This document shows, piece after piece, positions 3,559 to 49,944 of a stretch of DNA of 64,000 nucleotides (position 1 is its first letter; each line of letters opens with the position of its first letter). Made by a program: the position numbers and the translations under genes. The DNA comes from Candidatus Eremiobacteria bacterium (GTDB lineage Bacteria; Vulcanimicrobiota; Vulcanimicrobiia; Vulcanimicrobiales; Vulcanimicrobiaceae): NCBI GenBank assembly GCA_963737065.1, contig CAVTRC010000001.1, positions 32,001-96,000 of the forward strand, read 5' to 3'. A model generated the notes under the pieces. It saw nothing but the letters and a program-made list of their open reading frames with translations, did no database searches and was not told the origin of the DNA.

Positions 3559-3565
3559 GGGTCGG

Positions 3566-4468: not shown

Positions 4469-4519
4469 GAACCGCTCTTTCGACAGGGCCCCTCTCCACG
4501 CTTCGCTAAAGCGAACGGT

Positions 4520-5635: not shown

Positions 5636-5773
5636 TCCACGCCGTCGCTCGCCGTTCGTTCATCGCCGGCCGGTTGGCGCATGCCCCGGGCGGTCGATGT
5701 CTGCGTCGTCATACTCATCGCGTCGTACGATGGGCCGGGAAGTCGGCTGACTTCACCGAATTCAGCGGGCCGT

Positions 5774-6685: not shown

Positions 6686-6710
6686 TACCGAGTCTGCAGC
6701 ACGAGGAACG

Positions 6711-11138: not shown

Positions 11139-11144
11139 CGAAGT

Positions 11145-12605: not shown

Positions 12606-12669
12606 CGCGGCCTCATAGCTAGACAAATAAAGCGAGCGTACTCATAATGCTCAGTAAAGGAGCATTTGC

Positions 12670-13101: not shown

Positions 13102-13128
13102 CCTTGCACTCGGTGGACCGCAACTGCG

Positions 13129-13611: not shown

Positions 13612-13689
13612 GCCGACGTTCGTACCCACGCCGAAGTCCAAAAAACACCGGAGCCGCGGTTCGTTCGCGTGCTGCGCGTGGCCGCACCG

Positions 13690-22795: not shown

Positions 22796-22931
22796 GGCCT
22801 GAGCGTTCCCAGCTTATCCCCGGTATCCTCGGATTGCTCCACAGGCCGCCCGCAACGCCAGCCGCTCATCCGCAACATCTCCGCGGGATTCGCGTTCCAT
22901 CCACACCCAACCACAAGGAGCCGCGGCGCCG

Positions 22932-22979
22932 ACCCCATATCTTGTGTTTACCATCGCGGTATGCCACAATAGGTATCCC
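22932..22979 (+). promoter_or_regulatory. tandem NrdR boxes upstream of nrdJ
   Basis: accccatatcttgtgt (22932-22947; 13/16 to acaCwAtATaTwGtgt) and weaker ccacaataggtatccc 32 bp downstream. Confidence 0.7.
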
Positions 22980-23061
22980 ACGAGCACGTTTTGTGTGTTC
23001 GCCTACATCCACGCACGAGGCGAACAGGTGTTCGATGAAACGCGCGCCGAAGGAGCAACGC

Positions 23062-26000
23062 ATGAAGTTTCGCCGTCTTTATTCAGCGCCCGGCGACCCA
23101 TACGCGGGGCTTACGTTCGAGCCGCGCACATCGCGAATCGTGAATCCCGACGGATCGGTGATTTTCGAAGCGAAAGATGTGATGGTTCCCGAGGGCTGGA
23201 GCCAGGTCGCGGTCGACGTGCTTGCCCAGAAGTACTGCCGCAAGGCCGGCGTTCCAACGGCGACGACGCGCGTGCCGGAACCAGGCGTGCCGGAATGGCT
23301 GTGGCGGTCGGAAGCCGCGTCCGATTCAGCCTTCGGCGCCGAGCGCGACGCGCGCCAGGTCTTCAACCGTCTCGCCGGATGCTGGACGTATTGGGGTTGG
23401 AAGTACGGCTACTTCGATACCGAGGAAGACGCGCGCGTCTATTTCGATGAAATGGCCGCGATGCTCGCGCGCCAAATCGGCGCGCCAAATAGTCCGCAAT
23501 GGTTCAATACGGGCTTGCATTGGGCGTACGGTATTTCAGGTCCGGCGCAAGGCCACTATTTCGTCGATCCGCGCACGAATGAAGTGAGGAAATCCGCGAA
23601 TGCGTTCGAGCATCCGCAGGTTTCAGCGTGCTTCATCCTTTCGATCGAAGACGACTTGGTCAATGAAGGCGGCATCTTCGACGGCATCGTGCGCGAGGCG
23701 CGCATCTTCAAAGGCGGCTCCGGTTCCGGCGCCAACTTCTCGAAGATTCGCAGCGCCGGCGAAAAACTCACGGGCGGCGGTACGTCGAGCGGCTTGATGT
23801 CGTTCCTCAAAGTGTTCGATCGTGCCGCAGGCGCGATCAAATCCGGCGGCACGACGCGCCGCGCAGCAAAGATGGTCGTGCTCAACGCCGATCATCCCGA
23901 CATCGAAGAATTCGTCACGTGGAAAGTGCGCGAGGAACGCAAAGTCGCCGATCTCGTCATCGGTTCGCGCATTCTTGAAGAGCAACTGAACGCGATTCTC
24001 GCCGCCGCGCATGACACCCGTATTCCGGAAGCCGCGCGTCTCGACGTCGCGCTCAATCCGCATCTTCGGAGCGCGGTGCGCAAAGCGCTCGCGATGGGCG
24101 TTCCCAGCGGTGCGACGCAACAGGCGCTGGACTACGCGCGTCAGGGCTACACGCGTCTCGAAATCGAGCAATACGATACGGGTTGGGATTCCGAAGCGTA
24201 CGGAACCGTTTCGGGACAGAATTCGAACAACTCCGTGCGTTGCCGAATTCGTTCTTCAACGCGCTCGATAACGAACGACGATTGGCATCTTACGTCGCGC
24301 ACGAAGGGCAACATCGTCAAGACCATCAAAGCCGCCGATCTCTGGGAAGAAATCGGTCTTGCCGCATGGCAATGCGCCGATCCCGGACTTGCAATTCGAC
24401 GACACGATCCAAGAATGGCACACGTGCGCAAACGACGATCGGATAAACGCTACTAATCCATGCGTCACGGGTGACACGCTCATCTCAACGGCGGATGGCC
24501 CCGAACGCATAGCTGATCTGGTTGGAAAGGCTGCGTTCGTCATCGGCTCCGACGGCAAGCCGCACTTTGTCAACAAATCTTTCCAACAGGCCGAAAGACG
24601 GTCTATCGTCTAGCCACAAAGTCCGGGTACACGCTGGATCTCACGGCTGACCACAAGGTTGAAACCGCCAATCGCGGTGATGTGCCCGCGCAAGATTTGC
24701 GGCCGGGAGACCATATTGTGCTTTCCGGTTCCGGTTTCGGAAGCGTTGCGATCGATGAAAAGATCGCATTCGGAATTGGCGCGGCGGTTGCTGACGGGTG
24801 CGTTACAAATGGAAGCAACGTTGGCCTCATTATTACGATGCACGATGATGAGGAGCCGGTGCTGGCTGATATTGCGCGTGCAACTCTCGTCACAAAACCG
24901 CCGTCGACGTCCGGGCCTCGCATTTCGACAACGAACGCCCGCGTCGTAGAGCTGTTTTCGACGTACGCGGTTTTGAACGAGGGTAGCGGCGCTAAACGCT
25001 TTACGGACGCCATTTATCGCCTCGATCGCACGTCGACTGCCGCAATGCTGCGCGGACTATTTACCGCGGATGGAACGGTGGCCAACTCTGGCAAAAAGTC
25101 CCAGTACGTCTCGCTAGACTCGTGTTCGATCGAATTACTCCGCCAGGTACAGTATTTGCTGTTGTCATTCGGCATTAAATCGAAGCTGTACAGCGATCGC
25201 CGCACCACGTCATCGTCAATGTGTCCCGATGGCACAGGCAGCCTCGCCCGATACAATGTCATGCAGATGCACTCGCTTCGTGTTTCTCGCTCATCGCGCA
25301 AAACATTTGAACGAGAGATCGGCTTCCACCCGGCGTCGCACAAGGCTGCAGCATTGAAGCGCGTAAATGAGACGGTGGCGTGCTATGCAGATACGTTGTC
25401 TGATGAATTTGCGCACCTCGTTGAAATTGGAGAAGCAAACGTCTACGATTTGACTGAGCGCGATACGTCGCACTTCGTTGCAAATGGGCTACGAGTACAT
25501 AATTGTTCGGAATACATATTCATAGATGACACCGCGTGCAATTTGAGTAGCATGAACCTCGTCAAATTCGAAACGCCGCAGGGTGGATTCGACGCGACAA
25601 CGTTTCGCCGAGGCGTCCCGCATCTGGACGACGACGCTCGAAATCTCCGTGACGATGGGCCAGATGCCGTCGAAGGCGATCGCCGAGAAAAATCATGGTT
25701 ATCGCACGCTCGGCCTCGGTTACGCCAACCTCGGAACGCTCTTGATGCGCATGGGCTTGCCGTACGATTCAGAAGAAGCCTACGGCTGGTGTGCCGCAAT
25801 CAACGCGCTCATGACCGGTGCCGCGTATCGAACGTCGGCCGAAATGGCGCAACAACTCGGTCCTTTCGCGCGCTTTCGAGCAAACCGCGAACCAATGCTG
25901 CGCGTCGATTCGGAATCACCGCAACGCCGCTTACAACGGTACGCTCGGCGAGTACGAAGGTTTAACGGTAAAGCCGGTCACGTACGCTCCGACGCTTTTT

Positions 26001-29000
26001 ACGCAAGAGACGTGGGCGCTCGCACGCCGGATGTGGGACGATGCGCTATCGATCGGCGAAGTCGCCGGTTTTCGCAACGCACAGACCGTCGTTATCGCGC
26101 CGACCGGCTGCCTTGCCGGAAATTCGATGGTCATTACCGACCGCGGTCTAATGCGACTCAATCGACTTGGCAACGTCGATGGCGACAAGTGGCAAGATGT
26201 CGACTTCCGCGTTCTGACGGACGATGGCGAGCAAAAGGCGACGAAATTCTTTGTGAACGGCGTCGAGCACACTCGTCGAGTCATAACGAAGAGCGGCTAT
26301 GTCATTCAGGGAACGCCGACGCATCGCATTAAGGTGCTCGACGCAGCGACCGGCGATCTTCAATGGAAGCGCATGGCCGATGTTACGCAGAAGGACGTCG
26401 TAGCGTTGTCCATGGGCAAATTCATCGGCTCGCCCAAGGCCGTCGGCCTTCCCGATCTCAGCGAAGAGTATTGGACCGGCGACTATACGACGCGGGTACC
26501 GCGTCAAGTAAACGCGGAGTTAGCAGAGCTCATCGGCTACTTCATGGGAGATGGTTCGTTCCACAGCAAAGGCCTTCGTTTGTGCGTCTCCAACGGAGAC
26601 GATGACGTTATCACGCGACTTCAGTGCTTATCGAAGTCGTTGTTCAACATCGACGCGTCCATTGCGCGAACGACCGGCTACACTGAAGTTGCGATTACAT
26701 CGGTCCCGCTCACGCTCTGGTGGGAGGCGTGCGGCTTTAAAAAGCTGCCGCCACACCACGGCCATCGAGGTAAAGGTTACGTGCCTCGTGTTCCGGACGC
26801 TGTGCTGGCCACGAACGATCCGGCGGTTTACGGGGCGTTTGTCCGCGGTCTGTACGAAGCGGACGGAACGGTCACCGCAGGTTCGCCGACGTGGTCCACG
26901 GCCTCACGTGAGTTCGCCGACGAGGTGAAGACGCTCTTGCTGCTTCTCGGGGTGCCAACTACAACGAAGATCGGCATCTCCGGCTGGGGGCAATCCGAAA
27001 TATACTGCACCCGCGTGCTCAACATGTCGTACACGCAGAAATTCATGGACGTCGCGGGATTCATTGGTGCGCGCAAACGTCTTAGCGTGCGGTTCAACGA
27101 TACGTGGCAAGGACGCAAGCACGACAATGTTTACATCGGCGAATCAGCGTTTCGAGAACTCGTTACGAGTGGGAATGTGCCCAAGGGCGTTTTCTATAAC
27201 TCAAACAAGCGAAATCGCGGTGCCATTTCACGCCACCTTGCATCAGCGATTGTTGAACAAACCCGCAACGAAACATTGGCCTGTTCGCTCGACTTCTATT
27301 ACGACACCGTAGCAGCTAATGAAGACGGCGGCGAGCAACTGACCTACGATCTGTCGGTACCCGCGAACGTTACATACATTGCAAATGGCTTCATATCGCA
27401 TAATACGATCGGCCTCGTCATGGATTGCGATACGACCGGCATTGAACCCGACTTCGCGTTGGTCAAGTTCAAGAAACTCGCGGGCGGCGGCTATTTCAAG
27501 ATCGTTAATCAGTCGGTTGACGTTGCTTTGCATCGCCTCGGATATTCGCAAGAACAGATCAATGCGATTGAAGCGTATGCGAAGGGAACCGGTACGCTCA
27601 ACGAAGCGCCGCACATCAACCGTGCGACCTTAAAGGCAAAAGGCTTCGACGATGAGGCGGTTGCGCGCATCGAGGCTGCGACTCCCCGGCGCATTCGAGC
27701 TGCCCTTCGTCTTCAATAAATTCGTCCTCGGCGAGGAATTCTGCAAAGAGAAACTTCACCTCACTGACGAGCAACTCAACGACTTCAACTTTTCGATCCT
27801 GCGTGACGGACTTGGCTTCAACGCGTCGCAAATCGAGGAAGCGTCGGCGCACATTTGCGGCCGTATGACGCTCGAAGGTGCGCCGTATTTGAAAGACGAG
27901 CATCTTCCCGTCTTCGATTGCGCGACGCCTTGCGGCAAGCACGGCACGCGCTACATCCGGCCTCTCGCACACATCGAGATGATGGCGGCGGCGCAGCCGT
28001 TCGTCTCGGGCGCGATCTCGAAGTGCGTGGTTGGCGAAACGCTGCTGACAACAGAACAAGGCCTCATACGTATCGAGTCACTCCATCAAGGCGAGCACGA
28101 CGACTCCTTCCGCGAGCATCGCATGCGCGTCGCCTCGCTGAACGGAACCCAAACGACTGACGCGTTCTATTACGGCGGAAAGCGGGCCGTTCGCGAAGTT
28201 CGCCTACGTTCTGGGCATCGCGTCGTCGGAACCCCGAATCATCGCGTATTGACGTGCGGCGATCGTGGCCTCGAGTGGCGGTATCTTTCCGATATCAAAC
28301 CTGGCGAATACATCGCAACGCAATACGGCGATGACATGTGGTCGAATGAACCTGCTCGCTTCGATTCGTTCACCGCATCTGCCAAGTATGGCTCGCAGAA
28401 AGATCTTGTCGTTCCTGCGCAGATGAGCGAGGATCTTGGATTCTTCTTAGGCGCTTACGCCGCCGAAGGCCATACGTCGCGCTCGAATTACACCGTGACG
28501 ATCACGAACGCGATTGACTCTGTCCTCGAACGTGTTCAACAAGCGGCGCGAAACGTTTTTGGGATCGAAGGAAAGATTCTCCGTCCTGAAAATCGGTGTT
28601 CGAGCATCGTTTTTGCATCCAAGACGTTGGTCGAGTTCCTTGAATACCTCGGTGCAGGTTCGCGTGCGTCGAACAAGCGCATCCCTGACGCAGTGTTACG
28701 TTCAACGCGCGAGCACGTACTCGCGTTTCTCACCGGCCTCTTCCTTGATGCCTACGTGACGACCACCAGCATGAAGAAGTGGGCGATCTGTCTCGATTCG
28801 GCTCAATTGCTTGATGATGTACAAGCGGTTCTCACGAATCTCGGTATCGTTCACAGCCGCATAGAGAAACTAAATCGCGAAAACGGAAAAACCTACGGTG
28901 AAGTGTATGCAAGCGGTCGCCAAGCGCAAAGGCTGCTCTCGCTCGTTCAATTCCCTGAACCACTAAAACTTGCTCGCTCGTGGGCGGTACTCACCGCGAA

Positions 29001-30324
29001 CATCGCACAAAGTACGGCGGACGTCATTCCAGGCCTTGAAGGGCGCGCGCTTTACAACATGCTGCTCACGGGCCGCTCCGGCAAGTCCGGGACCGGCACG
29101 AGCGTTCGTCGTCGCTACACGAAGCTACTCGATCCGAGGACGAAGGCCGTGTCGTGGGATACCGTTCGCGAGCTCGCACGCGACATCGAATTGCCGGAAT
29201 GGCTCGACGAGATCGTCAACCGTAACCTGCACTTCAGTCCGGCCGAATCCGTTCGTGATGCCGGCGAGCGGATCGTCTATGACATTTCCGTTCCTGTCTC
29301 ACATGCGTTCGTCGGCAACGGAATCGTCAATCATAACACGATCAATCTGCCTCAATCCGCAACGATCAACGACGTCAAGGAGGCGTATCGCTACAGCTGG
29401 GAACGCATGATCAAAGCGGTTGCGCTCTATCGCGATGGTTCGAAACTCTCCCAGCCGCTTGCAGCAAGCTACGATCTCGGGGGAGAGGTCGCGCCCGAGG
29501 ACGACACGATCGCAACAGCGGCGTTCCAACAGCCGCTGCAAGTCGCCGAGAAGATCGTGTACCGCTACATCGCCAAGCGCCGCCGCATGCCGGAACGGCG
29601 CAGCGGTTACACGCAAAAGGCCGTCATCGGCGGGCACAAAGTCTACCTGCGCACCGGCGAATACGACAACGGGCAGCTCGGTGAGATCTTCATCGACATG
29701 CACAAAGAAGGCGCCGCGTTCCGTTCGCTGATGAACAACTTCGCGATTGCCGTTTCGCTCGGATTGCAGCACGGCGTGCCGCTCGAAGAATACGTCGAAG
29801 CGTTCACGTTCACGCGCTTCGAGCCGAACGGTCCGGTCGTCGGCCATCAGAACATCAAGATGGCGACGTCGCTCCTCGACTACATCTTCCGCGAACTGGC
29901 GGTGAGCTATCTAGGCCGCTACGATCTCGCGCACGTGCAACCGTCGATGGAAATGGACGCGATGGGAGTCGAGGAAACCGAAGACTACATCGCGGAAGAA
30001 CCCGGGCCGACGCAAGTGCGTCGAGCCGGAGTCGCGGAGCAGTTCCATCCGGTGTCGACGCATCTGCGTCCGGGATCGGAAGCACACGCGGGTGTCGCGA
30101 CCGATGAGCCGCCGATGCAAGCGCCGGCGATGCACGATACGGCAAGCGCGCAACCGCATGCGTCAGCGACGACGGCCGTCATGTCAAAGACGCAAGCGGT
30201 AAACGCTGCGAAAGCAAAGGGGTACACCGGAAACGCCTGTGGCGAATGCGGCCAACTGACGATGGTTCGAAACGGCGCATGTGAGAAGTGCGACAACTGC
30301 GGGGCGACGAGCGGATGTAGCTAA
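23062..30324 (+). CDS. nrdJ: vitamin B12-dependent class II ribonucleotide reductase with three inteins; about 7 single-base indels
   Basis: [59 protein letters not shown]-terminal Zn ribbon ..CGATSGCS. Confidence 0.95.
24461..25503 (+). mobile_element. intein 1 with LAGLIDADG endonuclease, at the NPCxE active-site Cys
   Basis: [10 protein letters not shown]...[19 protein letters not shown] and LRGLFTADG; 1043 nt (one A missing near 24577). Confidence 0.93.
26109..27404 (+). mobile_element. intein 2 (432 aa) with LAGLIDADG endonuclease
   Basis: [12 protein letters not shown]...[20 protein letters not shown] and [10 protein letters not shown]. Confidence 0.95.
28024..29337 (+). mobile_element. 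intein 3 (438 aa) with LAGLIDADG endonuclease
   Basis: [12 protein letters not shown]...[21 protein letters not shown] and divergent [10 protein letters not shown]. Confidence 0.95.
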
Positions 30325-30492
30325 AATGGTGTCGAATTCCATTTGATGCACCATTGTGCCGTCTGATGGGGCGCTCGTAAACGGATTGCCGGCACGCTTC
30401 GCGGTGCCCCGCATCATTCAGAAACTCTTATACGAAAAGCCCTTTTATCGACGGTTGCATCGTTTGGAACATTGTTGCATAATACGAGACAT

Positions 30493-31605
30493 ATGGATGC
30501 ACGCCATTTAGGACTCGATCTGCCCGGCGCTGCCCGTTTTGAGTTGCCGGACTACGTCACGCAGCTCGATCCTGGCGACGCCGTTTTTCAAGCGATGCTG
30601 CGAGGATGGCGAGCCCAACAGCACAGTCGTCAGCTGACCGACGACACGATCGAGGCTCGCGAACGCTACGTGGTGCGCCTACATCTATTCACAAACCAAT
30701 ACCCATGGCAGTGGCGCCCAGCCGCGCTTGAAGATTTCACATCGCACGAGTTCCGCTCCAAACAACGCGCGAAGTCGACGATTCGCGGCATGCACAACGC
30801 TATCGGGCTTTTCTGCGAATACATCACCGACATTCGGTACGATTGGGTCGCGATCTGCCGCGAGCTGTTTGACGCGACACCGATCCAGATTTGCACCGAG
30901 ATGAATACGCTCGGGCACGCGAGCGACTACGAAGGCGACCCTGAGCGACGTCCGTTCACTCGACGCGAACTGCAAGATTTCTTCGACTACATCGACGATC
31001 GCTATTTGAAGGTTCGCAAGCTCGGACGCAAGGGCGCGCTGGCACTACTCCGCGACTCAACGCTCTTTAAGAGCATCCTGGGCTGGGGTCTACGGCGTCG
31101 CGAGGCGAGCCGGCTCTCCATGAAAGACCGCCGACGCAATCCCGCTATCCCGGAATATGGCGTCTATGGTGGTCTGCACGAGCGCTACGGAAAAGCGGTG
31201 AAGGGCGGACCGCCTAAGCGGCGCCTTGTCCTGAGCATGCCGCATTTTGAGTGGGCAATTGAGGCACTCAAATACTACTGCGAAGAAGTGAGGCCGTTGC
31301 TCAATCCTGGCAATCACCCGGCAATATTCATCTCGGAACGTGCAACATACATGGATCCCGGTTGGATCGATCATCGGTTTCAAGAGTTTAGGTCCGGAGC
31401 CGGTCTCCCGGACGACCTGGATCTTCACTGTTTGCGCCATACCTACGTCACGTATCTCGCGGAAGAGAACGTCGACGGCCTGCTCATCCAAGATCAAGTC
31501 GGGCACGAATGGGGCGCCACCACGGGCATCTATACGCACGTGTCGCGTGATTTCAAGGTGAGCAAGCTCAAGGAACTGTACGGCGACCTCTACGGGCAAG
31601 CATAA
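30493..31605 (+). CDS. tyrosine recombinase/integrase
   Basis: GLRRRE (R), GKAVKG (K), HCLRH (HxxR), QVGH, GIYTH (Y): full catalytic set. Confidence 0.93.
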   Translation: MDARHLGLDLPGAARFELPDYVTQLDPGDAVFQAMLRGWRAQQHSRQLTDDTIEARERYVVRLHLFTNQYPWQWRPAALEDFTSHEFRSKQRAKSTIRGMHNAIGLFCEYITDIRYDWVAICRELFDATPIQICTEMNTLGHASDYEGDPERRPFTRRELQDFFDYIDDRYLKVRKLGRKGALALLRDSTLFKSILGWGLRRREASRLSMKDRRRNPAIPEYGVYGGLHERYGKAVKGGPPKRRLVLSMPHFEWAIEALKYYCEEVRPLLNPGNHPAIFISERATYMDPGWIDHRFQEFRSGAGLPDDLDLHCLRHTYVTYLAEENVDGLLIQDQVGHEWGATTGIYTHVSRDFKVSKLKELYGDLYGQA

Positions 31606-31949
31606 TGACGCGCAAGTTTGAAGCGCAATGGCATCTGCGAAAGCTCTTGGCGCTGAAAGGCATCTTTAACACAACGGATCTTCTACCGCTTCTGGCCGAG
31701 CGGGGCATAAACGTCTCGCGCACGCAGGCGTACCGGCTTGCAGCTGAAAAGCCAAACTACGTTTCCCTGGATCTGATCGTAGCGCTGTGCGATATTCTCG
31801 CGTGTACGCCGGCAGATTTAATTGAAAAAGTCGAGATCCGCAAAACCGTTAAGAAGGCGGTAGGTTATGAGTCGGCCGGTAAGGATCCGTCGCGCGCTCG
31901 CAACCTCAAACCAGTGCGCGCACGCATAAAAGATGCCGACAAAGACTGA
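31605..31949 (+). CDS. XRE/Cro-C1 type HTH protein
   Basis: WHLRKLLA...L...GINVSRTQAYRL...ALCDILACTPADLI; overlaps integrase stop by 1 nt. Confidence 0.85.
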   Translation: MTRKFEAQWHLRKLLALKGIFNTTDLLPLLAERGINVSRTQAYRLAAEKPNYVSLDLIVALCDILACTPADLIEKVEIRKTVKKAVGYESAGKDPSRARNLKPVRARIKDADKD

Positions 31950-34609
31950 ACGCAATCTTGCGGCGCTGCTGGACGCCGTCAGAACACTGGAACCCACGCT
32001 TTCCCGGGAGACGATTACCGCGGCGATCCGCAGCGCGACGGACCCCGCTATGCTGGGCAAGCTCGTTCGTTCGATCGCGCCGAATCCACGCGCCCTGCTC
32101 GATGCAGCCGCCGCGGCGATGCCGGCACATAGCCGGCTCGTTTGAAGAACTCCTCAAGCGCGGCGCGCGACACATCGTGCGCCCCACGTGCGGCCTGTGC
32201 GGAGAGGCGGCGCTCTTAGAATACAAATTTCAAGACCGACGGATCTGCCGAGAATGCTACACGAAGAACCTCAAAGCGGAATGCTGCATCTGTAAACGGA
32301 TGAAACAAATCTGCTCGCGCATCGATGGAAAGCCAAGGTGTGCTGCCTGTCACGTTCGCGATCCGCAAAACCACGAAATCTGCAGCATATGCAAGGCCCT
32401 CGCCTATCCACGGGTGCGCCCCAACGGCCGACCAATCTGTCAGCTCTGTTACGAAGCGCCGAAGCACGTCTGCACAAACTGCGGAAAGCATGCCCCCGCG
32501 CAGACGACGGAACCGCGAGTACTCTGCAAAGAGTGCTACGAAGTGATCGTCCTGGGAAAACCAGTGCGGGTCCTTCCACGCGCCAAGCACCGACCGATGC
32601 GCCAGCGCGTCTGTGCAACCTGCGGTGAAAGACGGCTCTGTACCAACTTCCTTGGTGATCAGCCGAAATGCGCCGATTGCGCAGGGCGCCCGAAGCTAGA
32701 ATGCGTTTCGTGCCGCAGGGAACGCCCGGTGCAGGCCATTTGGGAGATCGGTCCAGTGTGTAACACTTGCTATGACGGCAAGCGCGGTATGTGCAACCGC
32801 TGCGATCATGAAGGATTGGTTATTAAGTATCGCCACAACGCAATTTGTCACGAATGCGCCGGAAAGCCGAGTCAGTCGAAATGCGGCGGCTGTGGCCATC
32901 GTGAAGGGCTTTACGAACGCGGGCGCTGTGCTCGCTGTGTGCTCGACCGAAAGTTGACCGACTTGCTGCGGGACACGAGTGGGGAGTTCGCCAGCGAGCT
33001 GCTACCCCTAAAGAACCTACTTCTGGAACACCCGAGTCCTGAGTCGGTGCTCGGCTGGCTACGAAAGAGTCCAAAAGCGACTCACGTACTTGGAGCACTC
33101 GCCCGACGCGAATTGGAGGCGTCACATGTCGCATTCGACAATCTCGGCGGCGCGCCGTCCATTAGCTTCTTGCGATCTTTGTTGATGTCGAGCGCCGTTC
33201 TGCCGGAGCAGTCGCGTAACTTTTCGCTTCTGCTGCCATGGCTCGAACGTTTTCTCTCACGCTGCCCCGCGGCCCATCGACCCTTACTTTCAGCATTTGC
33301 GCAATGGCATGTCTTTCGACGACTACGCGACAAGGCGCGCTTTGGTGATATCACGGAGAGCTCCAACCGATGGGCCCGTGCGCGTTTGCGTTGCGCCGCC
33401 GTGTTCCTAAAATTTCTAGATAGCAAAGGTCATACCCTGAACACCTGTCAACAGGCCTTGCTTGATGAATGGCTAGCAGAGGGCTCGACGTCAGCGTACC
33501 TCGTGCGTGACTTCGTCTGCTGGGCATATCGCCGAAATCTGATGCGGCAACACGTTGTTCCGCTACGCAAAGTTAAGAAACCGGTCGACCCGATCGATGC
33601 GGATGCGCGGTGGGCGATCATTCGTCGCCTCATCACGGACGACACCATCCCCGTGGGTTTGCGCGTAGCCGGAGCATTAAACTTACTCTTTGGCCAGCAT
33701 GTGAGCAGAATCGTGCGCCTCACCGATGCCCATGTTATAAACATTGATGAAGAAACGTGCGTGGTGCTAGGCCGCGAACCAACTCCGCTTCCCCAACCCT
33801 TTGCTCGGCTGATCTTGGACCTCGTTAAAAGGCGGCGCAGTCAAAAGTGGAGTTGACCCGCTTCCGTGGAGACTTTCAATCTTACAGAGAAAGGTCTCCA
33901 TATGGCAAAGCGCCCCACCTATCCGCCGGAATTCCGGCATAGGATCCTCGAGCTGGTTCGCTCCGGTCGCAGCGTGAATTCGATTGCCGCCGAGTTCCAA
34001 GTCGCGCGGCAATCGATCGTGAACTGGCTGAAGCAAGACGACGTTGATACGGGCCGCCGCGACGGCGGTTTAACAACGGACGAACGCAAAGAACTTGCGG
34101 CACTGCGCCGTGAAAATAAGCGCTTAAAACTCGAAGCGGAAATCCTGTCAAAAGCCGCGGCCTGGTTCGCTCGGGAAACGCACGCGGTTCCGAGCAAATC
34201 TTCGGATTCATAAAGGCGTACCAGGCCAACTATACGATTACGATGCTGTGTCATGTGCTCGACGTTTCCCCGAGCGGATACTACGCGTGGTGCAACCGAT
34301 CGCCGTCGAAGCGCCGCCAAGACGACATCGTTCTCGGCGATCAGATCGATGCGTTCTATCGGAAGTCGTATGGTATTTACGGCCGTCCGCGCTTGCATGC
34401 GGATCTTCGCGAAGCCGGCATTCGGATCTCCGGAAAGCGCCTTGCGCGGTTGATGCGCGAACGCGGAATTGTCGGCGTTTCTCGGAGGAAATCCACAGTC
34501 ACGACCATACGCGATCGGGATTCGCGTCCGGCGCCTGATCTCGTTGAGCGCAATTTCCAAGCCGATGGGCCTGACCAGCTTTGGGTCGCTGACATTACGT
34601 TGTATCTTG

Positions 34610-34790
34610 GACCGACGCGGCGAACAACCGTCGCGAGGTGGGGATAGCACGGATATTACGTGAGGCAGCAACAGCCTGAGATGTAGATGTCGCACCCCAC
34701 TGCATTTTCAGCGCCGCAGGAGATCGGACGATAGCAAAGACGTTGCTCATCGAGCGAAGAGTCTGGATTTACAAGGCTGATCCGCGGGTG
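34610..34790 (+). ncRNA. bridge RNA (target- and donor-binding loops); ends approximate
   Basis: ATATTACGT 34653-61 and ATGTAG 34681-86 match the target; ACGATAGC 34728-35 and TACAAG 34770-75 match the donor junction. Confidence 0.85.
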
Positions 34791-34821
34791 GCGCGATTTC
34801 GATTTGAAATGTGGAGGCGCT

Positions 34822-35805
34822 GTGAAATTCATCGGGATTGATGTCTCTCGTGATAAGCTCGACTGCGCGGTAGTCGACGACTGTGGAACCGTTATTCAAC
34901 GATCGCGAGCATTTAAGAATAGCGCTGATGGCGTCGATGCGCTCCTGAAGTGGGTCGGAAAAATCGCCAGTAAGGGGCACGCGCGGTTTGTCATCGAGGC
35001 AACGGCAGCCTATCACGAGATGGCCTCACTGCGCCTTGCGAAGACCGGTGAATTCGTCGCAATCGTGAACCCATTTCACGTGCGTTCTTTAGCGCGCGGG
35101 CTAGCCATGCTCAGTAAGAGTGACGCGATTGATGCGCTCGTCCTTGCGCAATATGGGCGTCTTGCAAAGCTGCGCCGATGGGTACCGCCAGCTGCGCAGC
35201 TTGTTGATATTCAGGCTCTTTTGCTGCGGCTCGATGCGATTGAATCAGACCTCTTGCGTGAGCAGAATCGTCGCGAGCAGGCTGCAGCCAGAGAATCCGC
35301 GACGCTTGTGATTGGCTCGATTGACGCGAGTATCAAATTCCTAAAGCGTCAGCGGAAAAGCATCGAATTCGCGATCAGCAAATCGATTGAAACCGCTCCG
35401 GGTATCGCGGATGACGTCGAGCGCTTACGCTCGATCCCCGGCGTGGGCGAAAAGACAGCAAACCGCATGGCGACCATGCTGCGTATGCACGACTTTAAGT
35501 CGGCGCGTGAAGTGGCCGCCTTCTGCGGCCTCGTTCCGGTCGAGCATAAATCCGGAACGAGCGTCTATCGCAAGCCGCGACTCTCGAAGGCCGGCAACCC
35601 AAGAATGCGGGCGGCTCTATACATGGTTGCAGTCGTCGCCATGCGGTTGAACCCCGACGTCAAGGCGCTTTACGATCGACTCGTAGGACGCGGTAAAGCA
35701 AAAATGGCGGCTCTCGGTGCGTGCATGCGTAAGATCGTTCAGATATGTTTCGGCGTACTGAAGTCGGGAAAAACGTACGCCCCGCAGGCTGTTGTTAGAG
35801 CTTGA
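34822..35805 (+). CDS. IS110 DEDD recombinase
   Basis: IGIDVS, IEATA, KSDAIDA, SIPGVG, GLVP...SGTS; GGAGG RBS before GTG. Confidence 0.95.
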   Translation: MKFIGIDVSRDKLDCAVVDDCGTVIQRSRAFKNSADGVDALLKWVGKIASKGHARFVIEATAAYHEMASLRLAKTGEFVAIVNPFHVRSLARGLAMLSKSDAIDALVLAQYGRLAKLRRWVPPAAQLVDIQALLLRLDAIESDLLREQNRREQAAARESATLVIGSIDASIKFLKRQRKSIEFAISKSIETAPGIADDVERLRSIPGVGEKTANRMATMLRMHDFKSAREVAAFCGLVPVEHKSGTSVYRKPRLSKAGNPRMRAALYMVAVVAMRLNPDVKALYDRLVGRGKAKMAALGACMRKIVQICFGVLKSGKTYAPQAVVRA

Positions 35806-36679
35806 CTTCCCAGACGATATCTATATCCCGACCTGGGGTGGATTCGTATACCTCGCAATTGTGCTCGATGCTTACAGTCGTCGAGTCGTCGGCTGGGCAA
35901 CTGCTAATCACTTACGCACCGAACTTGTTCTGCAAGCGCTCAACTCATCAATCTATCGGCGACGGCCGGAAAACGTTATCCATCACTCGGATCAAGGCTG
36001 CCAATACACCTCAATCGCCTTCGGCCTGCGGTGTCGCGAAGCCAAGGTACGCCCGTCGATGGGTTCAGTCGGTGATGCATACGATAACGCGATGTGCGAG
36101 AGCTTCAACGCAACGCTCGAATGCGAACTACTTGCGCGAAGTTCGTTCAAAAGCCAGCGTGAAGCTGAACAAGCGATCTTCGCGTATATCGAGGGTTTCT
36201 ACAACCCGCATCGCCGGCATTCCGCAATCGGGTATCTCTCACCGAACAACTTCGAGCGCCGCATGAGTCATGCCGCTTGATGTCCAAGTCGCATTTCTCC
36301 GCGAAAGCGGGTCAACTCCAAAGCGCCCGAGGTTGGCATCAGGCGAATTCCTTTTGTTTCCGGGAAAGAACTACGGCAAGCCGACGACAACTGATGTGCT
36401 GAGTCATCGGTTGCAAAATATTGGAATCAGCGTACGTGCCGGCCGAAACGCTGCGCTGATGGAGATCGCGGCTAAGCTTCCCGCACCAGTGCTACGGGAT
36501 TTGCTCGGCATCCACATAAATGTGGCGGTAATTTGGAACCGCGCCGCAGGGCACAGCTATGCCAATTATGTCGGCGGTCTGAAGCGACAGAATGCTAAGA
36601 CTTAATCGGACAGTTGGCGAAGGTCGCATCGCATCCTGCCGCGTCACTGAGCGTGACGTCGGCGACGAAGGAGACGATC

Positions 36680-37714
36680 TTGACCACCGAACGCAAAGTC
36701 ATTCGTGCCAAAGTCGGCCTGCTCAACCTTGCAAAGCAGTTGGGGAACGTGCAGCAGGCCTGCAAGATGATGGGGTTTAGTCGCGATAGTTTCTATCGCT
36801 TCCAAGAGCTCTATGAAACCGGCGGTGAGGCCGCGCTCGCGGAAATCTCGCGCCGAAAACCGATCCTGAAGAACCGAATCGATCCAACGATCGAGGATGC
36901 GATCGTGACGCTCGCAATAGAACAGCCGGCGTTCGGCCAAGTGCGCGTCGCCAATGAACTCAAAAAACGTGCAATGACCGTTTCTCCCGCCGGCGTGCGC
37001 TGCGTTTGGCAGCGGCACGATCTTGAGACGATGAAGAAACGATTGAAAGCACTAGAAGCAAAAAGTGCACAGGAAGGTTTGGTTCTGACCGAAGCGCAGC
37101 TCGCAGCACTTGAGAAGGCGCAGAACGAGAAGGACGCGCACGGCGAGTTCGAGAGTGAATGCCCCGGTTATTGCGGCGCACAAGACACGTTCTACGTCGG
37201 CACGCTCAAAGGCGTCGGCCGTGTATATCAGCAGACCTTTGTCGACACGTATAGCAAAGTTGGATTCGCGAAGCTGTACCAGCAAAAGACGCCAATTACT
37301 GCAGCAGATCTGCTCAATGATCGGGTCATTCCATTCTTTGAAGAGCACGATATTCGCGTGAGCCGAATCCTCACTGATCGTGGAACCGAGTACTGCGGAG
37401 ACGTCCAGAAGCATCCTTACGAGTTGTACCTCGCAATCGAAGACATCGATCACACGCGCACCAAGGCAAAGAGCCCCCAAACAAACGGCATCGTTGAACG
37501 CCTTCACAAGACGATGCTTAACGAATTCTACCGCGTGGCATTCCGCAAGAAGATTTACCATACGGTCGACGAGCTGCAAGCCGATCTCGATGCATGGATG
37601 CGCGAGTACAACATAGAACGCACGCATCAAGGGCGCTGGTGTTACGGCAAGACGCCGATGCAGACATTTTTCGACAGCTTGGAACTCGCCAAGGAGAAGC
37701 TATTTGCAGCCTGA
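36680..37714 (+). CDS. IS481-family transposase (element ends not identified)
   Basis: [43 protein letters not shown]. Confidence 0.9.
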
Positions 37715-37835
37715 GTTTAGCGCCATTGGAACGATCCGACACTCAGCGACGCGATCATGCGCCAACCACGACAGACAACGAAAACCCCGAAGATTATCGA
37801 TTGCGTAGCACAGCACACTGGTACCTGCCGTGCCA

Positions 37836-38114
37836 TCAACGTTGCCGCGAGTTGCCATCAAACTCGCCAAATACCTGCTGAAGCGTTGCATATGCTCTGT
37901 CTTCGCGGGCGTATGCACGCCCAACGATCCGGCAATTAAGCAGCGCGAGCAATACTGCCGCCACGAACGCAGTGCCCACGATCACCCAATGAGGAAGCGT
38001 TTTCACCGTTACCGCCTCATAGCCAAGAATGATCAAAGCCGCATTACCAGCGAGGCTCGCTATGAATATCGAAGTCAATTGCTTCCCTTCGTTCAGCCGA
38101 TTAGCCATATTCAC
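37836..38114 (-). CDS. small two-TM hypothetical protein or fragment
   Basis: two hydrophobic stretches only; no recognised motif. Confidence 0.35.
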   Translation of the reverse strand: MNMANRLNEGKQLTSIFIASLAGNAALIILGYEAVTVKTLPHWVIVGTAFVAAVLLALLNCRIVGRAYAREDRAYATLQQVFGEFDGNSRQR

Positions 38115-38237
38115 GCAACCGAACCCCGCTCGGTAGATGCACGTGGCTTGCGAAGTCGACGTTGAAAATGGAGGCTTGATACATCCTGTTGTTGACGCCG
38201 GGTGAAAAGTGACCCACTTTGCTAGGGGATCGCCGGT

Positions 38238-40050
<1,813 letters not shown>

Positions 40051-40100
40051 CGCGACCTTGCGTTCGCGTTAGATCAGGTGGAACGGCTTAGTCAACTCTG

Positions 40101-41174
40101 TTAGGCGGCGACTTCAATACTATTCTGACTATTGCGCGCAAGTCGGTCTTGCATCGGTTGTAACCGATAAAACACAACCGTTGCCAGCTGCCGTTTGTGA
40201 GAACGCATCGCAGCTCGATGCGTCTTGCCCTCAGCTCGCTTACGCGCATAATAGAGTTGGCCCGGATGATTGCGCGTGCGGTTTTGGACCAACGCAATAA
40301 CATGGAGTAATCGATTGAGCTGACGATCACCACCGGTGTTGACACGGACGCTCGCGTTGCGACCGCTCGAACACGGAACGGGCGCCGCCCCGGCGCGCAT
40401 CGCGAAGCTCGCGGCATTGCGATACATGCAAAGATTGCCGGCATGTCCAATGATCCCGGCAGCAACGACAATGGAAACGCCTCGAAGCTCCAGCAATTCG
40501 GGCGCAAGGCGCTTAACGAAAGGGCGCAGTTGGCGTTCCAGCTGATTCACTGCAGCATTGAGCCGGCGGATTTCCGAGATCGCCTCGTCGACCTCATCAG
40601 CAAGCGCATCACCGGTATAGCTCTTACCGCGATGACCCGTTAGAAGATCTGCTGCATTCTGCAATGCAATTTCGGTGGTCATGTTCGAGGGCAGCGGTCC
40701 AATCGCCAGCCGCAATGCGGCATCCCGCAGCCGATTTACAGCCTCCGTCCGCTGTCGCACAAGTCGATCGCGGCGATCATAACGTAACCGGACTGCTTCC
40801 TGTTCATCCAGACGTTCGCAACGCCGCAAGCGATCGGATTCGCGCAGAACTGCTTCGGCAATCGCTCGAGCGTCGAGTGGATCGGATTTTCCTCTTCGGC
40901 TTGCGTGTTTGCGGTGACGTTTAGTGAACGAACCTGGAACCTCGTATACGACGGCGTTGCTTTTCAGCAGAGCATCGGCGAAGCCACGTCCGAACGAACC
41001 ACTTCCCTCAAGACCCCATTCAACGGTGCCAAACGACCGTGCTCTTTCGATCGCAGTCGCATACCCTGCGGCGTTCGTTGCAATGGTGATCTCCGAGAGC
41101 GCTTTCCCAACTCCATCAACGAATACGATGGTGTGAGAATCCTTGTGACAATCGACGCCCGCAACGACGCGCAT
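40101..41174 (-). CDS. IS110 DEDD recombinase
   Basis: AGVDCHK, LEGSG, GKSDPLDA, GAAPVPCSSG, GDRQLN; AAGGAG RBS. Confidence 0.95.
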   Translation of the reverse strand: MRVVAGVDCHKDSHTIVFVDGVGKALSEITIATNAAGYATAIERARSFGTVEWGLEGSGSFGRGFADALLKSNAVVYEVPGSFTKRHRKHASRRGKSDPLDARAIAEAVLRESDRLRRCERLDEQEAVRLRYDRRDRLVRQRTEAVNRLRDAALRLAIGPLPSNMTTEIALQNAADLLTGHRGKSYTGDALADEVDEAISEIRRLNAAVNQLERQLRPFVKRLAPELLELRGVSIVVAAGIIGHAGNLCMYRNAASFAMRAGAAPVPCSSGRNASVRVNTGGDRQLNRLLHVIALVQNRTRNHPGQLYYARKRAEGKTHRAAMRSHKRQLATVVFYRLQPMQDRLARNSQNSIEVAA

Positions 41175-48504: not shown

Positions 48505-48594
48505 ATAATGGGACTTAGGAGATGGGCATGCCGCATAATCGGACTTACAGTGATAATGTCACTAGCGCCTAGCTAAATAGCTAAAGAGCTTAAA
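48505..48594. repeat. island right-end repeats
   Basis: ATAATGGGACTTA 48505-17, ATAATCGGACTTA 48535-47, ATAATGTCACTA 48553-64, then TAGCTAAA TAGCTAAA GAGCTTAAA. Confidence 0.75.
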
Positions 48595-48600
48595 CGTCCG

Positions 48601-48676
48601 GAATCCCATTTGATGCAACGTTCTCGCCTCTGATGGGACGCTCACGAACGCATGAAGAGGCAGCGCTCGCGCTGCC
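48601..48676 (+). repeat. imperfect direct copy of island left end (30334-30408)
   Basis: gaat.ccatttgatgca...tctgatggg.cgctc...aacg followed by a ggca..tgcc hairpin in both copies. Confidence 0.8.
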
Positions 48677-48813
48677 TTTGTTTAGGCAGTGAAGGATGCA
48701 CAGAGACCGGGACAGGAAGCTGGTTCCGTCAGCAAGCCCAAACCTTGCGCGGGAGCGGCGCTCTATAGAAACCCCATAGAGTCAAACAACCGCTTCTGGA
48801 GAAAGAAAGTCGA

Positions 48814-49692: not shown

Positions 49693-49944
49693 ATGGCGAA
49701 ACAACATCTTCGCGCGGGTCCCGTTCACAGTATGCCTACGGACCTTCGCAAAGCGATCGACTCCGACTCGATTGCGAAGGAAATGTGGGCGGATATTACT
49801 CCGCTGGCACGCAATGAATGGATCTGTTGGGTTACGTCAGCGAAGAAAGACGAAACTCGGGAACGACGCATTACCGTCGGGCTTGATAAACTGCGCAAAG
49901 GTATGCGCCGACCGTGCTGCTGGCCGGGTTGCCCGCACCGATAG
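49693..49944 (+). CDS. YdeI/OmpD-associated family protein
   Basis: P.DL..A, TPLARNEWICWVTSAKK.ETR.RRI, RPCCWPGC. Confidence 0.8.
   Translation: MAKQHLRAGPVHSMPTDLRKAIDSDSIAKEMWADITPLARNEWICWVTSAKKDETRERRITVGLDKLRKGMRRPCCWPGCPHR

What the first reader, a model, noticed from the sequence alone, without database searches (positions are those of the whole stretch)
30493..36605. Integrase + HTH + zinc-ribbon-array/dead-recombinase three-gene module
Seen: three overlapping genes. The third (about 730 aa after repair) has 8 tandem units of about 30 aa, C-x2-C-x(11-15)-C-x2-C, with variable basic loops. A helical region follows, then a tyrosine-recombinase-like tail whose catalytic positions look substituted (LLFGQHVSRI for GLRxxE, FPG, AGRNAAL for HxLRH, DLLGIH, W near the Tyr position). 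Inference: an active/inactive recombinase pair where the modular Zn array selects the target, like TnsD/TniQ, so possibly a repeat-programmable integrase. I recall similar trios as uncharacterised ORFs in Actinobacteria and know of no mechanism for them.
Basis: partly seen in the sequence, partly recalled or inferred. Interest (0 to 1): 0.88.

Follow-up and report, generated by a model that had tools for sequence, protein, structure and literature searches.

The report
Integrase, HTH and dead-recombinase integration module
A three-gene cassette (working integrase, small DNA-binding protein, and a large zinc-finger protein built on a disabled integrase fold) sits at the end of a genomic island inserted behind a ribonucleotide reductase gene; the same uncharacterised cassette is widespread on actinobacterial plasmids, and this copy is broken.

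Summary
Window 30472-36605 holds three overlapping genes. They are a tyrosine integrase with an intact catalytic set, a Cro/C1-type HTH protein, and a gene of about 743 aa ("G3"). G3 is broken here by a one-base frameshift near 32141 and by an IS3-family element (33848-36320, 3-bp duplication) that carries a nested IS110.

Intact homologues have 8 Cys4 zinc units, a helical linker, and a complete tyrosine-recombinase fold (VIA Z 12-14 to XerH, XerA, Tn1549 Int, Cre). That fold lacks Arg-I and has Trp at the nucleophile position in 171 of 175 members.

The family is large: 1991 cluster representatives at E<=1e-30 and 240 plasmid records, mostly Actinomycetota. It has no Pfam, NCBIfam, PHROG or PADLOC model, and I found no paper on it. 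The gene order held in 7 of 8 plasmid regions viewed.

In this genome's bacterial family the trio lies directly after the nrdJ stop codon in 5 loci, at the left end of 18-27 kb islands.

My best reading is that Int does the chemistry and G3 is a non-catalytic DNA-binding partner. The "repeat-programmable" idea has no support. A conserved Tyr 11 residues downstream leaves a small chance that G3 is active.

The parts
30300..30324 (+). 3' end and stop codon of nrdJ (class II ribonucleotide reductase). This is the chromosomal half of the left junction (attL); the shared core TAGCTAA(A) ends here.
   Evidence: Pfam on 27652-30324. Homology with other elements begins at the stop codon. The same junction is seen in L004, L037, L039 and L040.
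30325..30471 (.). Left arm of the element. It holds a conserved motif of about 60 nt (30334-30385), a hairpin, and GTTGCAT repeats just before the int start.
   Evidence: Alignments with L001 and L004. A second copy of the motif lies at 48601-48643, the only other match in the genome at E<1e-3.
30472..31605 (+). Tyrosine integrase (377 aa), apparently intact.
   Evidence: PF00589 at 53.2 bits against a cut-off of 27.1. XerC/XerD-like NCBIfam hits lie below the equivalog cut-offs. R208, K241, H319, R322, H345 and Y354 are invariant in 8 of 8 relatives.
31605..31949 (+). Cro/C1-type HTH protein (114 aa). It overlaps both neighbouring genes.
   Evidence: PF13443 HTH_26, E 2.6e-14. It occupies the same position in related loci and in plasmid trios.
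31933..32145 (+). G3 piece 1: the N-terminal helical domain, ended by a frameshift.
   Evidence: The 70-aa ORF matches residues 1-70 of P0002. There is an extra base in a T run near 32141.
32143..33847 (+). G3 piece 2: the 8-unit Cys4 zinc array (32171-32962), a helical linker, the core-binding domain and the first part of the catalytic-like domain.
   Evidence: AF2 model of the intact homologue. Fold matches.
33848..36320 (+). IS3-family insertion sequence that interrupts G3, itself interrupted at about 34.6-35.8 kb by an IS110-family element (transposase gene 34804-35805).
   Evidence: Inverted repeats 33848-33872 and 36296-36320. AAG on both sides. Pfam HTH_Tnp_1, HTH_21, rve and DEDD_Tnp_IS110.
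36321..36605 (+). G3 piece 3: the end of the catalytic-like domain (FPG, GRN, LLGIH, W, Y).
   Evidence: It aligns to P0002 from about residue 637 onward and to L001 6298-6567.
48507..48586 (.). Inferred right end of the island (attR). It holds two direct repeats AAT(C/G)GGACTTA(C/G) spaced 30 nt apart, a mimic of the nrdJ 3' end, and the core TAGCTAAA twice.
   Evidence: It is colinear with the sequence upstream of int in L001.
48587..48680 (.). Second copy of the 60-nt left-arm motif followed by a terminator-like hairpin. I read it as the remnant of an older element at the same site.
   Evidence: Remnants of the same kind lie behind nrdJ in relatives.

Best explanation
Int, HTH and G3 form one co-inherited integration and excision module of a genomic island. 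The island spans about 18.3 kb here (30325 to about 48586) and inserts at the stop codon of nrdJ.

Int is the only enzyme and performs strand cleavage and exchange. G3 is a pseudo-recombinase. It keeps the C-shaped DNA clamp of a tyrosine recombinase (core-binding plus catalytic-like domain) but has lost Arg-I and the beta-hairpin Lys, and has Trp where the nucleophile Tyr should be. I propose that it binds att DNA sequence-specifically without cutting it, and acts as the architectural or site-defining partner of Int. That would fill the role that arm-binding domains and host factors play for lambda-type integrases, because this Int has no arm-binding domain. The zinc-ribbon array would add further DNA or protein contacts. 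The HTH protein would be the regulator or directionality factor.

Shown: the gene anatomy, the fold, the residue losses, the conservation of the trio, the insertion site, and the decay of this copy.

Inferred: that G3 binds att DNA, that it works with Int, and what the zinc array and the HTH protein do.

In this window G3 is inactivated, so this island is probably immobile.
For: Fold:
- The AF2 model of the intact homologue P0002 has mean pLDDT 82.9.
- Foldseek gave 22 PDB matches at E<=1e-3. All those listed are tyrosine recombinases, led by Tn1549 Int at 1.9e-5.
- VIA-align gave 98 chains at Z>=8. Examples are XerH Z 13.9 (rmsd 4.6, 255 aligned), Tn1549 Int Z 12.8 and Cre Z 11.7, over model residues about 447-719.
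- A profile search of PDB sequences found XerD, E 0.006.

Active-site loss:
- The XerD alignment puts the variable position 589 opposite Arg-I. Among 183 members that position is P 64, H 27, D 15, Q 14 and R only 14.
- Position 709 is W in 171 of 175 members.
- The ends of the structural alignments place Tn1549 Y379, and by my recalled residue numbers the Tyr of Cre, lambda Int and IntI, at model residues 709-712.

Active partner: Int keeps R, K, H, R, H and Y in 8 of 8 relatives.

Module conservation:
- Int-HTH-G3 in this order occurs in L001-L004 and L037-L040.
- It occurs in 7 of 8 plasmid regions viewed.
- The genes overlap.
- Identities of the three proteins fall together across loci.

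Site:
- The trio directly follows the nrdJ stop codon in the window, L004, G090, G215 and G168.
- Relatives carry remnants there.
- The genes that flank the site in relatives reappear 18-27 kb downstream of it.
- In the two islands annotated, and among this island's ORFs of 150 aa or more, no other mobility gene apart from IS elements was found.

Precedent for an integrase fold used only for DNA binding: YopR/MrpR and SroF appear among the fold matches at Z 8.8-9.9. For PMC10516654 and 10.1101/2025.11.27.690993 I saw abstracts only.
Against: - No result shows that G3 binds DNA or Int.
- Tyr720, 11 residues after W709, is Y in 154 of 172 members. A low-confidence global HHalign alignment places it opposite the Int nucleophile, so a non-canonical active site is not excluded.
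- pLDDT falls to 55-62 over residues 711-730.
- I had no residue-level structural superposition. The Tyr placement rests on alignment end points and partly on recalled residue numbers.
- One plasmid (S. anulatus, H30) has G3 without an annotated Int or HTH gene beside it.
- The att model is inferred from sequence comparison only. The one clean empty site for this window comes from an unpublished genome (G247).
- The repeats I call 'arm' repeats also lie behind nrdJ in genomes without an element. I read those as remnants, but they could be native sequence.
Confidence: 0.5

Rival explanations
1. G3 is a transcriptional repressor or regulator of the element, a domesticated integrase fold like the SPbeta repressor MrpR/YopR or phi3T SroF. 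It would control int and cargo expression rather than take part in recombination.
For: YopR (8bpz, Z 8.8) and SroF (9rgl Z 9.9, 9rd5 Z 9.4) are among the fold matches. The catalytic residues are lost. GTTGCAT repeats lie at the int promoter region. One plasmid has G3 without an adjacent Int.
Against: G3 is the last gene of an overlapping operon that begins with int, and it is found with int in 7 of 8 plasmid regions and in all 8 related loci where tblastn found G3. A dedicated HTH regulator is already present. Canonical recombinases match better (Z 12-14) than the repressors do. No phage genes are nearby.
Confidence: 0.2
2. G3 is an active second recombinase with an unusual active site. Tyr720 would be the nucleophile and W709 would take the Trp/His-III role as in Cre. 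The module would then be a two-recombinase system like XerC/XerD or Tn554 TnpA/TnpB.
For: Y720 is Tyr in 154 of 172 members. The W-to-Y spacing of 11 is near the 9 of Cre (Cre numbers recalled). Global HHalign pairs Y720 with Int Y354. Arg-II (R679) is kept in 172 of 176 members.
Against: The Arg-I position is not conserved (R in 14 of 183), and the His-II position is mostly Arg (111 of 176). Position 720 is F, H, T or A in 17 of 172 members, and 15 of 176 have no Tyr anywhere in 703-725. Structural alignment end points put the nucleophile at 709-712. G3 misses the Pfam Phage_integrase model in 13 of 14 members, with one hit at E 0.016. A true long Tn554-like recombinase scores 58.7 bits.
Confidence: 0.1
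3. One reading: the tandem zinc units read the target DNA unit by unit, so that the number and sequence of repeats programme the insertion site.
For: Unit number varies from 5 to 10 among 174 full-length members and falls to 2-3 in Arthrobacter. The units are basic and regularly spaced.
Against: Elements whose arrays are only about 35-58% identical to the window's share one insertion site. The array is no more variable than the other domains. The only fold resemblance is weak and is to tandem LIM domains, which are protein-binding modules (best E 1.6e-3; best VIA Z 2.9 of 48,161 chains). No repeated DNA array matching 8 units was seen at the att sites.
Confidence: 0.07
4. On plasmids the trio is a multimer-resolution or partition-linked system, and its position behind nrdJ in this bacterial family is a secondary use.
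For: In the plasmid regions the trio lies near ParA-, ParB- or ParM-like genes.
Against: Many hosts are linear Streptomyces plasmids, where dimer resolution is not needed. The chromosomal copies sit at a fixed site at the edge of islands.
Confidence: 0.08

Closest known systems
Tn554 transposition module (TnpA, TnpB, TnpC) and the 'Tn554-like' actinobacterial elements of Van Houdt et al. 2012 (PMC3414803; I read passages and the whole of section 10)
   Same: Three co-oriented genes: a recombinase of about 360-380 aa, a long one of 600-800 aa, and a small protein of about 115-125 aa. Insertion is site-specific. Both are frequent on actinobacterial plasmids.
   Different: The gene order differs, with the small protein in the middle here. 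The long Tn554-like protein of Arthrobacter FB24 plasmid 1 keeps R, HxxR and Y, has no N-terminal CxxC array, and scores above the PF00589 cut-off. The G3 profile found nothing in 3 of 4 plasmids listed in that paper, and only a broken fragment in pRHL2.
MrpR/YopR (SPbeta) and SroF (phi3T) repressors
   Same: A tyrosine-recombinase fold without recombination chemistry, used to bind DNA. Both appear among the fold matches.
   Different: They are phage repressors of about 320 aa with no zinc array, and they are not encoded in an operon with an active integrase. What they do is taken from abstracts.
RIT (recombinase in trio) elements
   Same: Three overlapping genes with tyrosine-recombinase folds form a mobile module.
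   Different: In RIT all three proteins are recombinases (PMC8138268 and PMC3414803, passages seen). Here one is a recombinase, one an HTH protein and one a pseudo-recombinase.
Lambda-type integrases with arm-binding domains and accessory factors (IHF, Xis); Xer with PepA/ArgR
   Same: Site-specific integration next to a conserved gene end, with att sites carrying repeats outside the core. The proposed role of G3 and HTH is that of accessory or architectural factors. This comparison rests on established knowledge and is not tested here.
   Different: The accessory factor would itself be a recombinase paralogue fused to a zinc array and encoded by the element.
TnsD/TniQ target selectors
   Different: No meaningful sequence or fold match was found. 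TniQ reached E 0.42 in the PDB profile search and is absent from the fold lists. The recombination chemistry is also different.

Membership tests
Tyrosine recombinase / phage integrase (PF00589): G3 | Two-domain fold, core-binding plus catalytic | tested here: met
   Foldseek E 1.9e-5 and below. VIA Z 12-14 over residues about 447-719.
Tyrosine recombinase / phage integrase (PF00589): G3 | Catalytic set Arg-I, Lys, His-II, Arg-II, His/Trp-III and Tyr | tested here: not met
   The Arg-I position is variable (R in 14 of 183). Arg-II is kept in 172 of 176. The Tyr position is W in 171 of 175. Caveat: Y720.
Tyrosine recombinase / phage integrase (PF00589): G3 | Score above Pfam's gathering cut-off | tested here: not met
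   No Pfam family for the window pieces. One of 14 members hit PF00589, at E 0.016.
Tyrosine recombinase / phage integrase (PF00589): Int (30472-31605) | Pfam score above cut-off and an intact catalytic set | tested here: met
   53.2 bits against 27.1. R208, K241, H319, R322, H345 and Y354 are invariant in 8 of 8.
Tn554-like module | Two recombinases that both carry the catalytic motif, in the order tnpA-tnpB-tnpC | tested here: not met
   G3 lacks the motif and the small gene lies in the middle. The G3 profile misses the Tn554-like long proteins.
RIT element | Three tyrosine recombinase genes | tested here: not met
   The middle gene is an HTH_26 protein.
MrpR/YopR-SroF type integrase-fold repressors | Integrase fold without catalysis, acting as a phage master repressor | tested here: inconclusive
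   The fold is shared (Z 8.8-9.9) but canonical recombinases match better. There is no phage context. Repressor activity cannot be tested here.
TniQ/TnsD | TniQ fold (zinc ribbon plus winged helix) partnered with a Tn7-type transposase | tested here: inconclusive
   No significant sequence or fold match. No Tn7-type genes are in the island.
IS3 family (the insertion in G3) | Terminal inverted repeats, 3-bp target duplication, orfA (HTH) and orfB (rve) | tested here: met
Site-specific integrative genomic island | Fixed insertion site at a conserved gene end, integrase at one edge, direct repeats at both ends, and an empty site in relatives | tested here: met
   Five loci at the nrdJ stop. Repeat pair 30334-30376 / 48601-48643, E 7.5e-5. 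Empty site in G247, which is unpublished. Excision or circular forms were not observed.

The most novel reading that the evidence does not exclude
The trio is a distinct and widespread class of accessory-guided tyrosine integrase. A pseudo-recombinase fused to a variable tandem zinc-ribbon array forms a hetero-complex with the active Int and supplies most of the site recognition, so that specificity lies in a non-catalytic subunit that could be exchanged or re-engineered.
Probability: 0.15. Interest if true: 0.85.

Novelty: new variant of a known kind. Interest (0 to 1): 0.6.

Why it matters
Tyrosine integrases are prized for inserting large DNA, but they are hard to retarget because recognition and catalysis sit in the same protein. 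If this module places recognition in a separate dead paralogue, it would be a natural example of split specificity.

The module is also common. There are 1991 cluster representatives at E<=1e-30, and it occurs on Streptomyces, Rhodococcus, Arthrobacter and Mycobacterium plasmids. Yet it has no family model, and I found no paper on it.

The work also defines the nrdJ stop codon as a recurrent island insertion site in this bacterial family. The islands there carry defence-like cargo.

Tried and rejected
- Complex prediction of Int with G3 residues 345-743 gave no verdict. The score was 0.58, but one control reached 0.51. It counts neither way.
- The look-up of sequencing runs listed no run, so excision joints and expression could not be examined.
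- HHalign of G3 against the Int family was too weak to give residue equivalences (probability 0.3; probability 2.0, global mode).
- Zinc array folded alone (pLDDT 72.0): Foldseek found no match at E<=1e-3, and the best were tandem LIM domains at 1.6e-3. VIA-align against 48,161 chains had a best Z of 2.9. No fold assignment is made.
- PADLOC and PHROGs gave no family for G3 or HTH. NCBIfam gave none for G3.
- The word-based protein search returned only 19 relatives. I first read that as rarity. The exhaustive profile search corrected it.
- The genome-contig scan found 1 locus and the metagenome scan found 6.
- A search for direct repeats of the nrdJ end in G090, G215 and G168 (up to 7 mismatches in 25 nt, 40 kb each) found none. 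Their right ends are placed only by flank synteny.
- A search for an empty site with the window's right flank in 40 relatives found none.
- I considered that the trio is the Tn554-like class of Van Houdt 2012 and rejected this.
- Literature: five full-text searches found no paper on this trio or on nrdJ as an attachment site. Supplements were not consulted.
- The search of earlier findings returned nothing.
Full report
**What is at the coordinates.** The window carries, on the + strand, three overlapping genes.
- A 377-aa tyrosine integrase lies at 30472-31605. It hits Pfam Phage_integrase at 53.2 bits against a cut-off of 27.1. Its XerC/XerD-like NCBIfam scores are far below the equivalog cut-offs.
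- A 114-aa Cro/C1-type HTH protein lies at 31605-31949 (PF13443).
- A third gene, called G3 here, starts at the ATG at 31933.

G3 is broken twice.
- Its first 70 codons match the N-terminus of intact homologues, and the frame then changes at an extra base in a T run near 32141.
- An IS3-family element occupies 33848-36320. It has 25-nt inverted repeats at 92% complementarity and an AAG duplication on both sides.
- An IS110-family gene at 34804-35805 splits the orfB of that IS3 element.
- The last 95 codons of G3 follow at 36321-36605.
- An IS481-like element and IS21 and IS110 genes come next.

**How large the family is.** The word-indexed search found only 19 relatives. That number reflects the search method. 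An exhaustive profile search of 1.84 billion cluster representatives found 8771 at E<=1e-3, 5506 at E<=1e-10 and 1991 at E<=1e-30.

A tblastn of one Streptomyces member hit 240 of 72,556 plasmid records. The hosts included Streptomyces 106, Rhodococcus 56, Arthrobacter 19, Paenarthrobacter 11 and Mycobacterium 9.

Sources call these proteins "hypothetical protein", "integrase", "recombinase XerD", "XRE family" or "Fis family transcriptional regulator". No Pfam, NCBIfam, PHROG or PADLOC model covers G3.

**What G3 is.** The AF2 model of the intact 743-aa homologue P0002 (84% identical) has mean pLDDT 82.9 but pTM 0.36, so the domains are confident and their relative placement is not. Its layout is:
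- a helical N-terminal domain (1-75);
- eight zinc units (about 85-336);
- a helical region (345-445);
- a complete tyrosine-recombinase body.

Foldseek gave 22 PDB matches at E<=1e-3, and those listed are Tn1549 Int, XerH, XerA, Cre, lambda Int and the Brujita integrase. VIA-align gave 98 chains at Z>=8, including XerH Z 13.9 (rmsd 4.6, 255 aligned), IntI 12.9, Tn1549 Int 12.8 and Cre 11.7, all over model residues about 447-719. A sequence profile also finds XerD in the PDB (E 0.006).

**The active site is degenerate.**
- The XerD alignment puts G-Q-H-x-S-R opposite G-L-R-V-S-E, so the Arg-I position is residue 589.
- Among 183 family members position 589 is P 64, H 27, D 15, Q 14, and R only 14.
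- Arg-II (R679) is kept in 172 of 176 members.
- The His-II position is Arg in 111 of 176, and the His-III position is His in 75 of 176.
- Position 709 is Trp in 171 of 175.
- The end points of the structural alignments place Tn1549 Y379 at model residues 709-712. By residue numbers that I recall rather than computed, the nucleophiles of Cre, lambda Int and IntI fall in the same range.

One caveat matters. Tyr720, at the start of the last helix, is Tyr in 154 of 172 members (F 9, H 6, T 1, A 1), and 15 of 176 have no Tyr at all in 703-725. A low-confidence global HHalign alignment pairs Tyr720 with the Int nucleophile. Because Arg-I is also lost, I regard G3 as non-catalytic, but this is not proven.

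**The zinc array.**
- Unit number ranges from 5 to 10 in 174 full-length members: 5 units in 4, 6 in 12, 7 in 17, 8 in 59, 9 in 60 and 10 in 22.
- Arthrobacter plasmid versions of about 500 aa have 2-3 units.
- The array is not hypervariable: 42% mean identity against 40-45% for the helical-linker, core-binding and catalytic-like domains.
- Folded alone (pLDDT 72.0), it gave only weak resemblance to tandem LIM domains (best E 1.6e-3). VIA-align found nothing above Z 2.9 among 48,161 chains.

**The trio is a conserved module.**
- Int-HTH-G3 in this order is found in a Candidatus Baltobacteraceae MAG (L001; Int 92%, HTH 89%, G3 80% identical), in metagenome contigs L002-L004, and in genomes G090, G141, G215 and G168.
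- The identities of the three proteins fall together across these loci.
- In G389, tblastn found Int and HTH only. In G402, tblastn found Int only. In both, only the profile detected shorter G3-like frames.
- Of 8 actinobacterial plasmid regions inspected, 7 show the trio. These are Rhodococcus pRaL13f, Streptomyces pFRL5 (two copies), M. gordonae p1, Gordonia pGOR1, Arthrobacter FB24 plasmid 2, Cryobacterium pA28BH2 and A. crystallopoietes pLDW-10.
- The exception is S. anulatus, where G3 stands alone in PLSDB's incomplete gene table.
- Int keeps R208, K241, H319, R322, H345 and Y354 in 8 of 8 aligned relatives.

**Where it sits and what it moves.** In the window, L004, G090, G215 and G168 the trio begins 150-190 nt after the stop codon of nrdJ. 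DNA homology between elements starts at that stop codon.

Within the genome, the only other significant copy of the left-arm sequence is at 48601-48643 (E 7.5e-5). Just upstream of that copy lie:
- two direct repeats of AATCGGACTTAC-type sequence spaced 30 nt apart;
- a stretch that mimics the nrdJ 3' end;
- the 8-nt core TAGCTAAA, present twice.

In L001 the same right-end sequence lies directly upstream of int. That is an attP-like arrangement. The nrdJ of that MAG sits on another contig and is followed only by a short remnant.

Evidence on island size:
- In G247 (unpublished; this claim rests on it) a ydeI-like gene starts 57 nt after the nrdJ stop. In the window that gene is at 49731-49943, so about 19 kb has been inserted.
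- By flank synteny with G013, the islands in G215 and G168 are about 26-27 kb.

Cargo:
- G215 carries a SIR2-STAND-TPR protein and serine hydrolases.
- G168 carries type III restriction-modification genes, a C5 methylase and ThiF/DUF6791/DUF6527 genes.
- The window island carries a PQQ dehydrogenase, several unassigned ORFs and many IS elements.
- No conjugation, replication or phage genes were recognised.

I therefore read the trio as the islands' only integration machinery.

**Traces in relatives.** The G3 profile matched 11 of 401 genomes of the phylum, the window's own included. For 29 relatives plus the window's own genome I extracted the nrdJ 3' end (41 of 61 family genomes had an nrdJ match; 30 loci were fetched).
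- None of the 29 relatives has an intact int within 1.5 kb downstream.
- One (G112) has a fragment of the G3 C-terminus at the stop codon.
- One (G017) has an Int N-terminal fragment.
- 8 of 29 loci tested (one skipped; own genome included) repeat the last 7 nt of nrdJ, with at most one mismatch, starting 1-2 nt after the stop. Control 20-nt windows further downstream did so in 19 of 1699 cases. Two of the 8 are unpublished genomes (G247, G271).
- G131, G153 and G405 show the two GGACTTAC repeats behind nrdJ without an element.

I read these as scars of repeated integration and decay. That they are native sequence cannot be excluded.

**Mechanism.** The integrase has no arm-binding domain, yet the att regions carry conserved sequence well outside the core. 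The element encodes only two other proteins in the operon, and both have folds of DNA-binding families, although DNA binding itself is untested.

The most economical model has three roles. Int does the chemistry. G3 clamps specific att DNA without cutting it and shapes or selects the synapse. HTH regulates or sets direction. I hold this model at about 0.5.

The repressor precedent is MrpR/YopR and SroF, which are integrase folds used only for binding (fold matches; abstracts seen). It makes a purely regulatory role the main rival, at 0.2. An active G3 using Tyr720 is at 0.1. The programmable-array idea is at 0.07.

A complex prediction for Int with the G3 body gave no verdict. No sequencing run was listed.

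**Comparison with what is known.** The nearest described systems are the three-gene Tn554 module and the "Tn554-like" actinobacterial elements of Van Houdt et al. 2012. That paper pairs a short recombinase with an "abnormally long" one (PMC3414803, section 10 read). They are not the same family.
- The long protein of Arthrobacter FB24 plasmid 1 keeps the catalytic motifs and has no N-terminal CxxC array.
- It passes the Pfam cut-off at 58.7 bits.
- The G3 profile found nothing in pRHL3, FB24 plasmid 1 or pNL2, and only a broken fragment in pRHL2.
- RIT elements have three true recombinases (passages).
- Five full-text searches found no paper on this trio or on nrdJ as an attachment site.

**Verdict.** The finding is real and the structural reading is largely right. 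The "programmable" inference is unsupported. The copy in this window is a decayed member of a widespread, unnamed integration module, which I rate as a new variant of a known kind (site-specific integrative elements). Interest is 0.6.

Noticed in passing
window 22834-30324: The class II ribonucleotide reductase gene (nrdJ) carries three LAGLIDADG-type intein insertions. It reads as four ORFs (22834-24456, 24682-25965, 25818-27719, 27652-30324) with at least one in-frame stop and two frame changes. Relatives have open frames of 1200-2000 aa. Either the gene is decaying or the assembly has indel errors, which would also bear on the G3 frameshift.
   Followed up: partly
L049, L054, L059, L064, L065, L048, L051, L061 (nrdJ 3' ends of relatives); window 48571-48586: The last 7-8 nt of nrdJ, stop codon included, are repeated in tandem immediately after the stop in 8 of 29 loci. 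Control windows did so in 19 of 1699 cases. G247 has about six degenerate copies. Conservative site-specific recombination should not create such duplications, so their origin is unexplained. L051 and L061 are unpublished genomes.
   Followed up: partly
L096 (G405 C73), L057, L062: Units of about 110 nt lie behind nrdJ. Each consists of an element-left-end-like stretch, two GGACTTAC repeats 30 nt apart and a terminator, with no genes. They could be deletion scars or non-autonomous mini-elements.
   Followed up: partly
window 36614-41174: IS pile-up downstream of G3: an IS481-like gene (36614-37714), IS21 istB (38238-39032, minus strand) and an rve gene (39025-40050, minus strand), and a second IS110-family gene (40101-41174, minus strand).
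   Followed up: no
L039/L077 (G215) and L040/L078 (G168): The nrdJ islands carry defence-like cargo. G215 has a SIR2-STAND NTPase-TPR protein. G168 has type III restriction-modification genes, a C5 methylase and a ThiF/DUF6791 plus DUF6527 pair.
   Followed up: no
L079 (Gordonia pGOR1) 2077-3603; L045 (M. gordonae p1) 1335-5492: A glutaredoxin-like nrdH gene lies directly upstream of the trio's int in pGOR1, and about 3 kb away in the M. gordonae plasmid. Together with the nrdJ site here, this hints at a link to ribonucleotide reductase loci. Two of 8 regions may equally be chance.
   Followed up: no
L044 (Streptomyces sp. F8 pFRL5) 4404-8097 and 11059-14079: Two copies of the trio lie within 10 kb on one linear plasmid, separated by HTH and AAA-ATPase genes.
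   Followed up: no
L001 2699-2776: In the Baltobacteraceae MAG, the element's right-end sequence (two repeats plus the nrdJ-end mimic) lies directly upstream of int and behind a GNAT-GrpB gene. This is an attP-like junction, suggesting a tandem array or a non-integrated form. The contig ends 2.7 kb upstream.
   Followed up: partly
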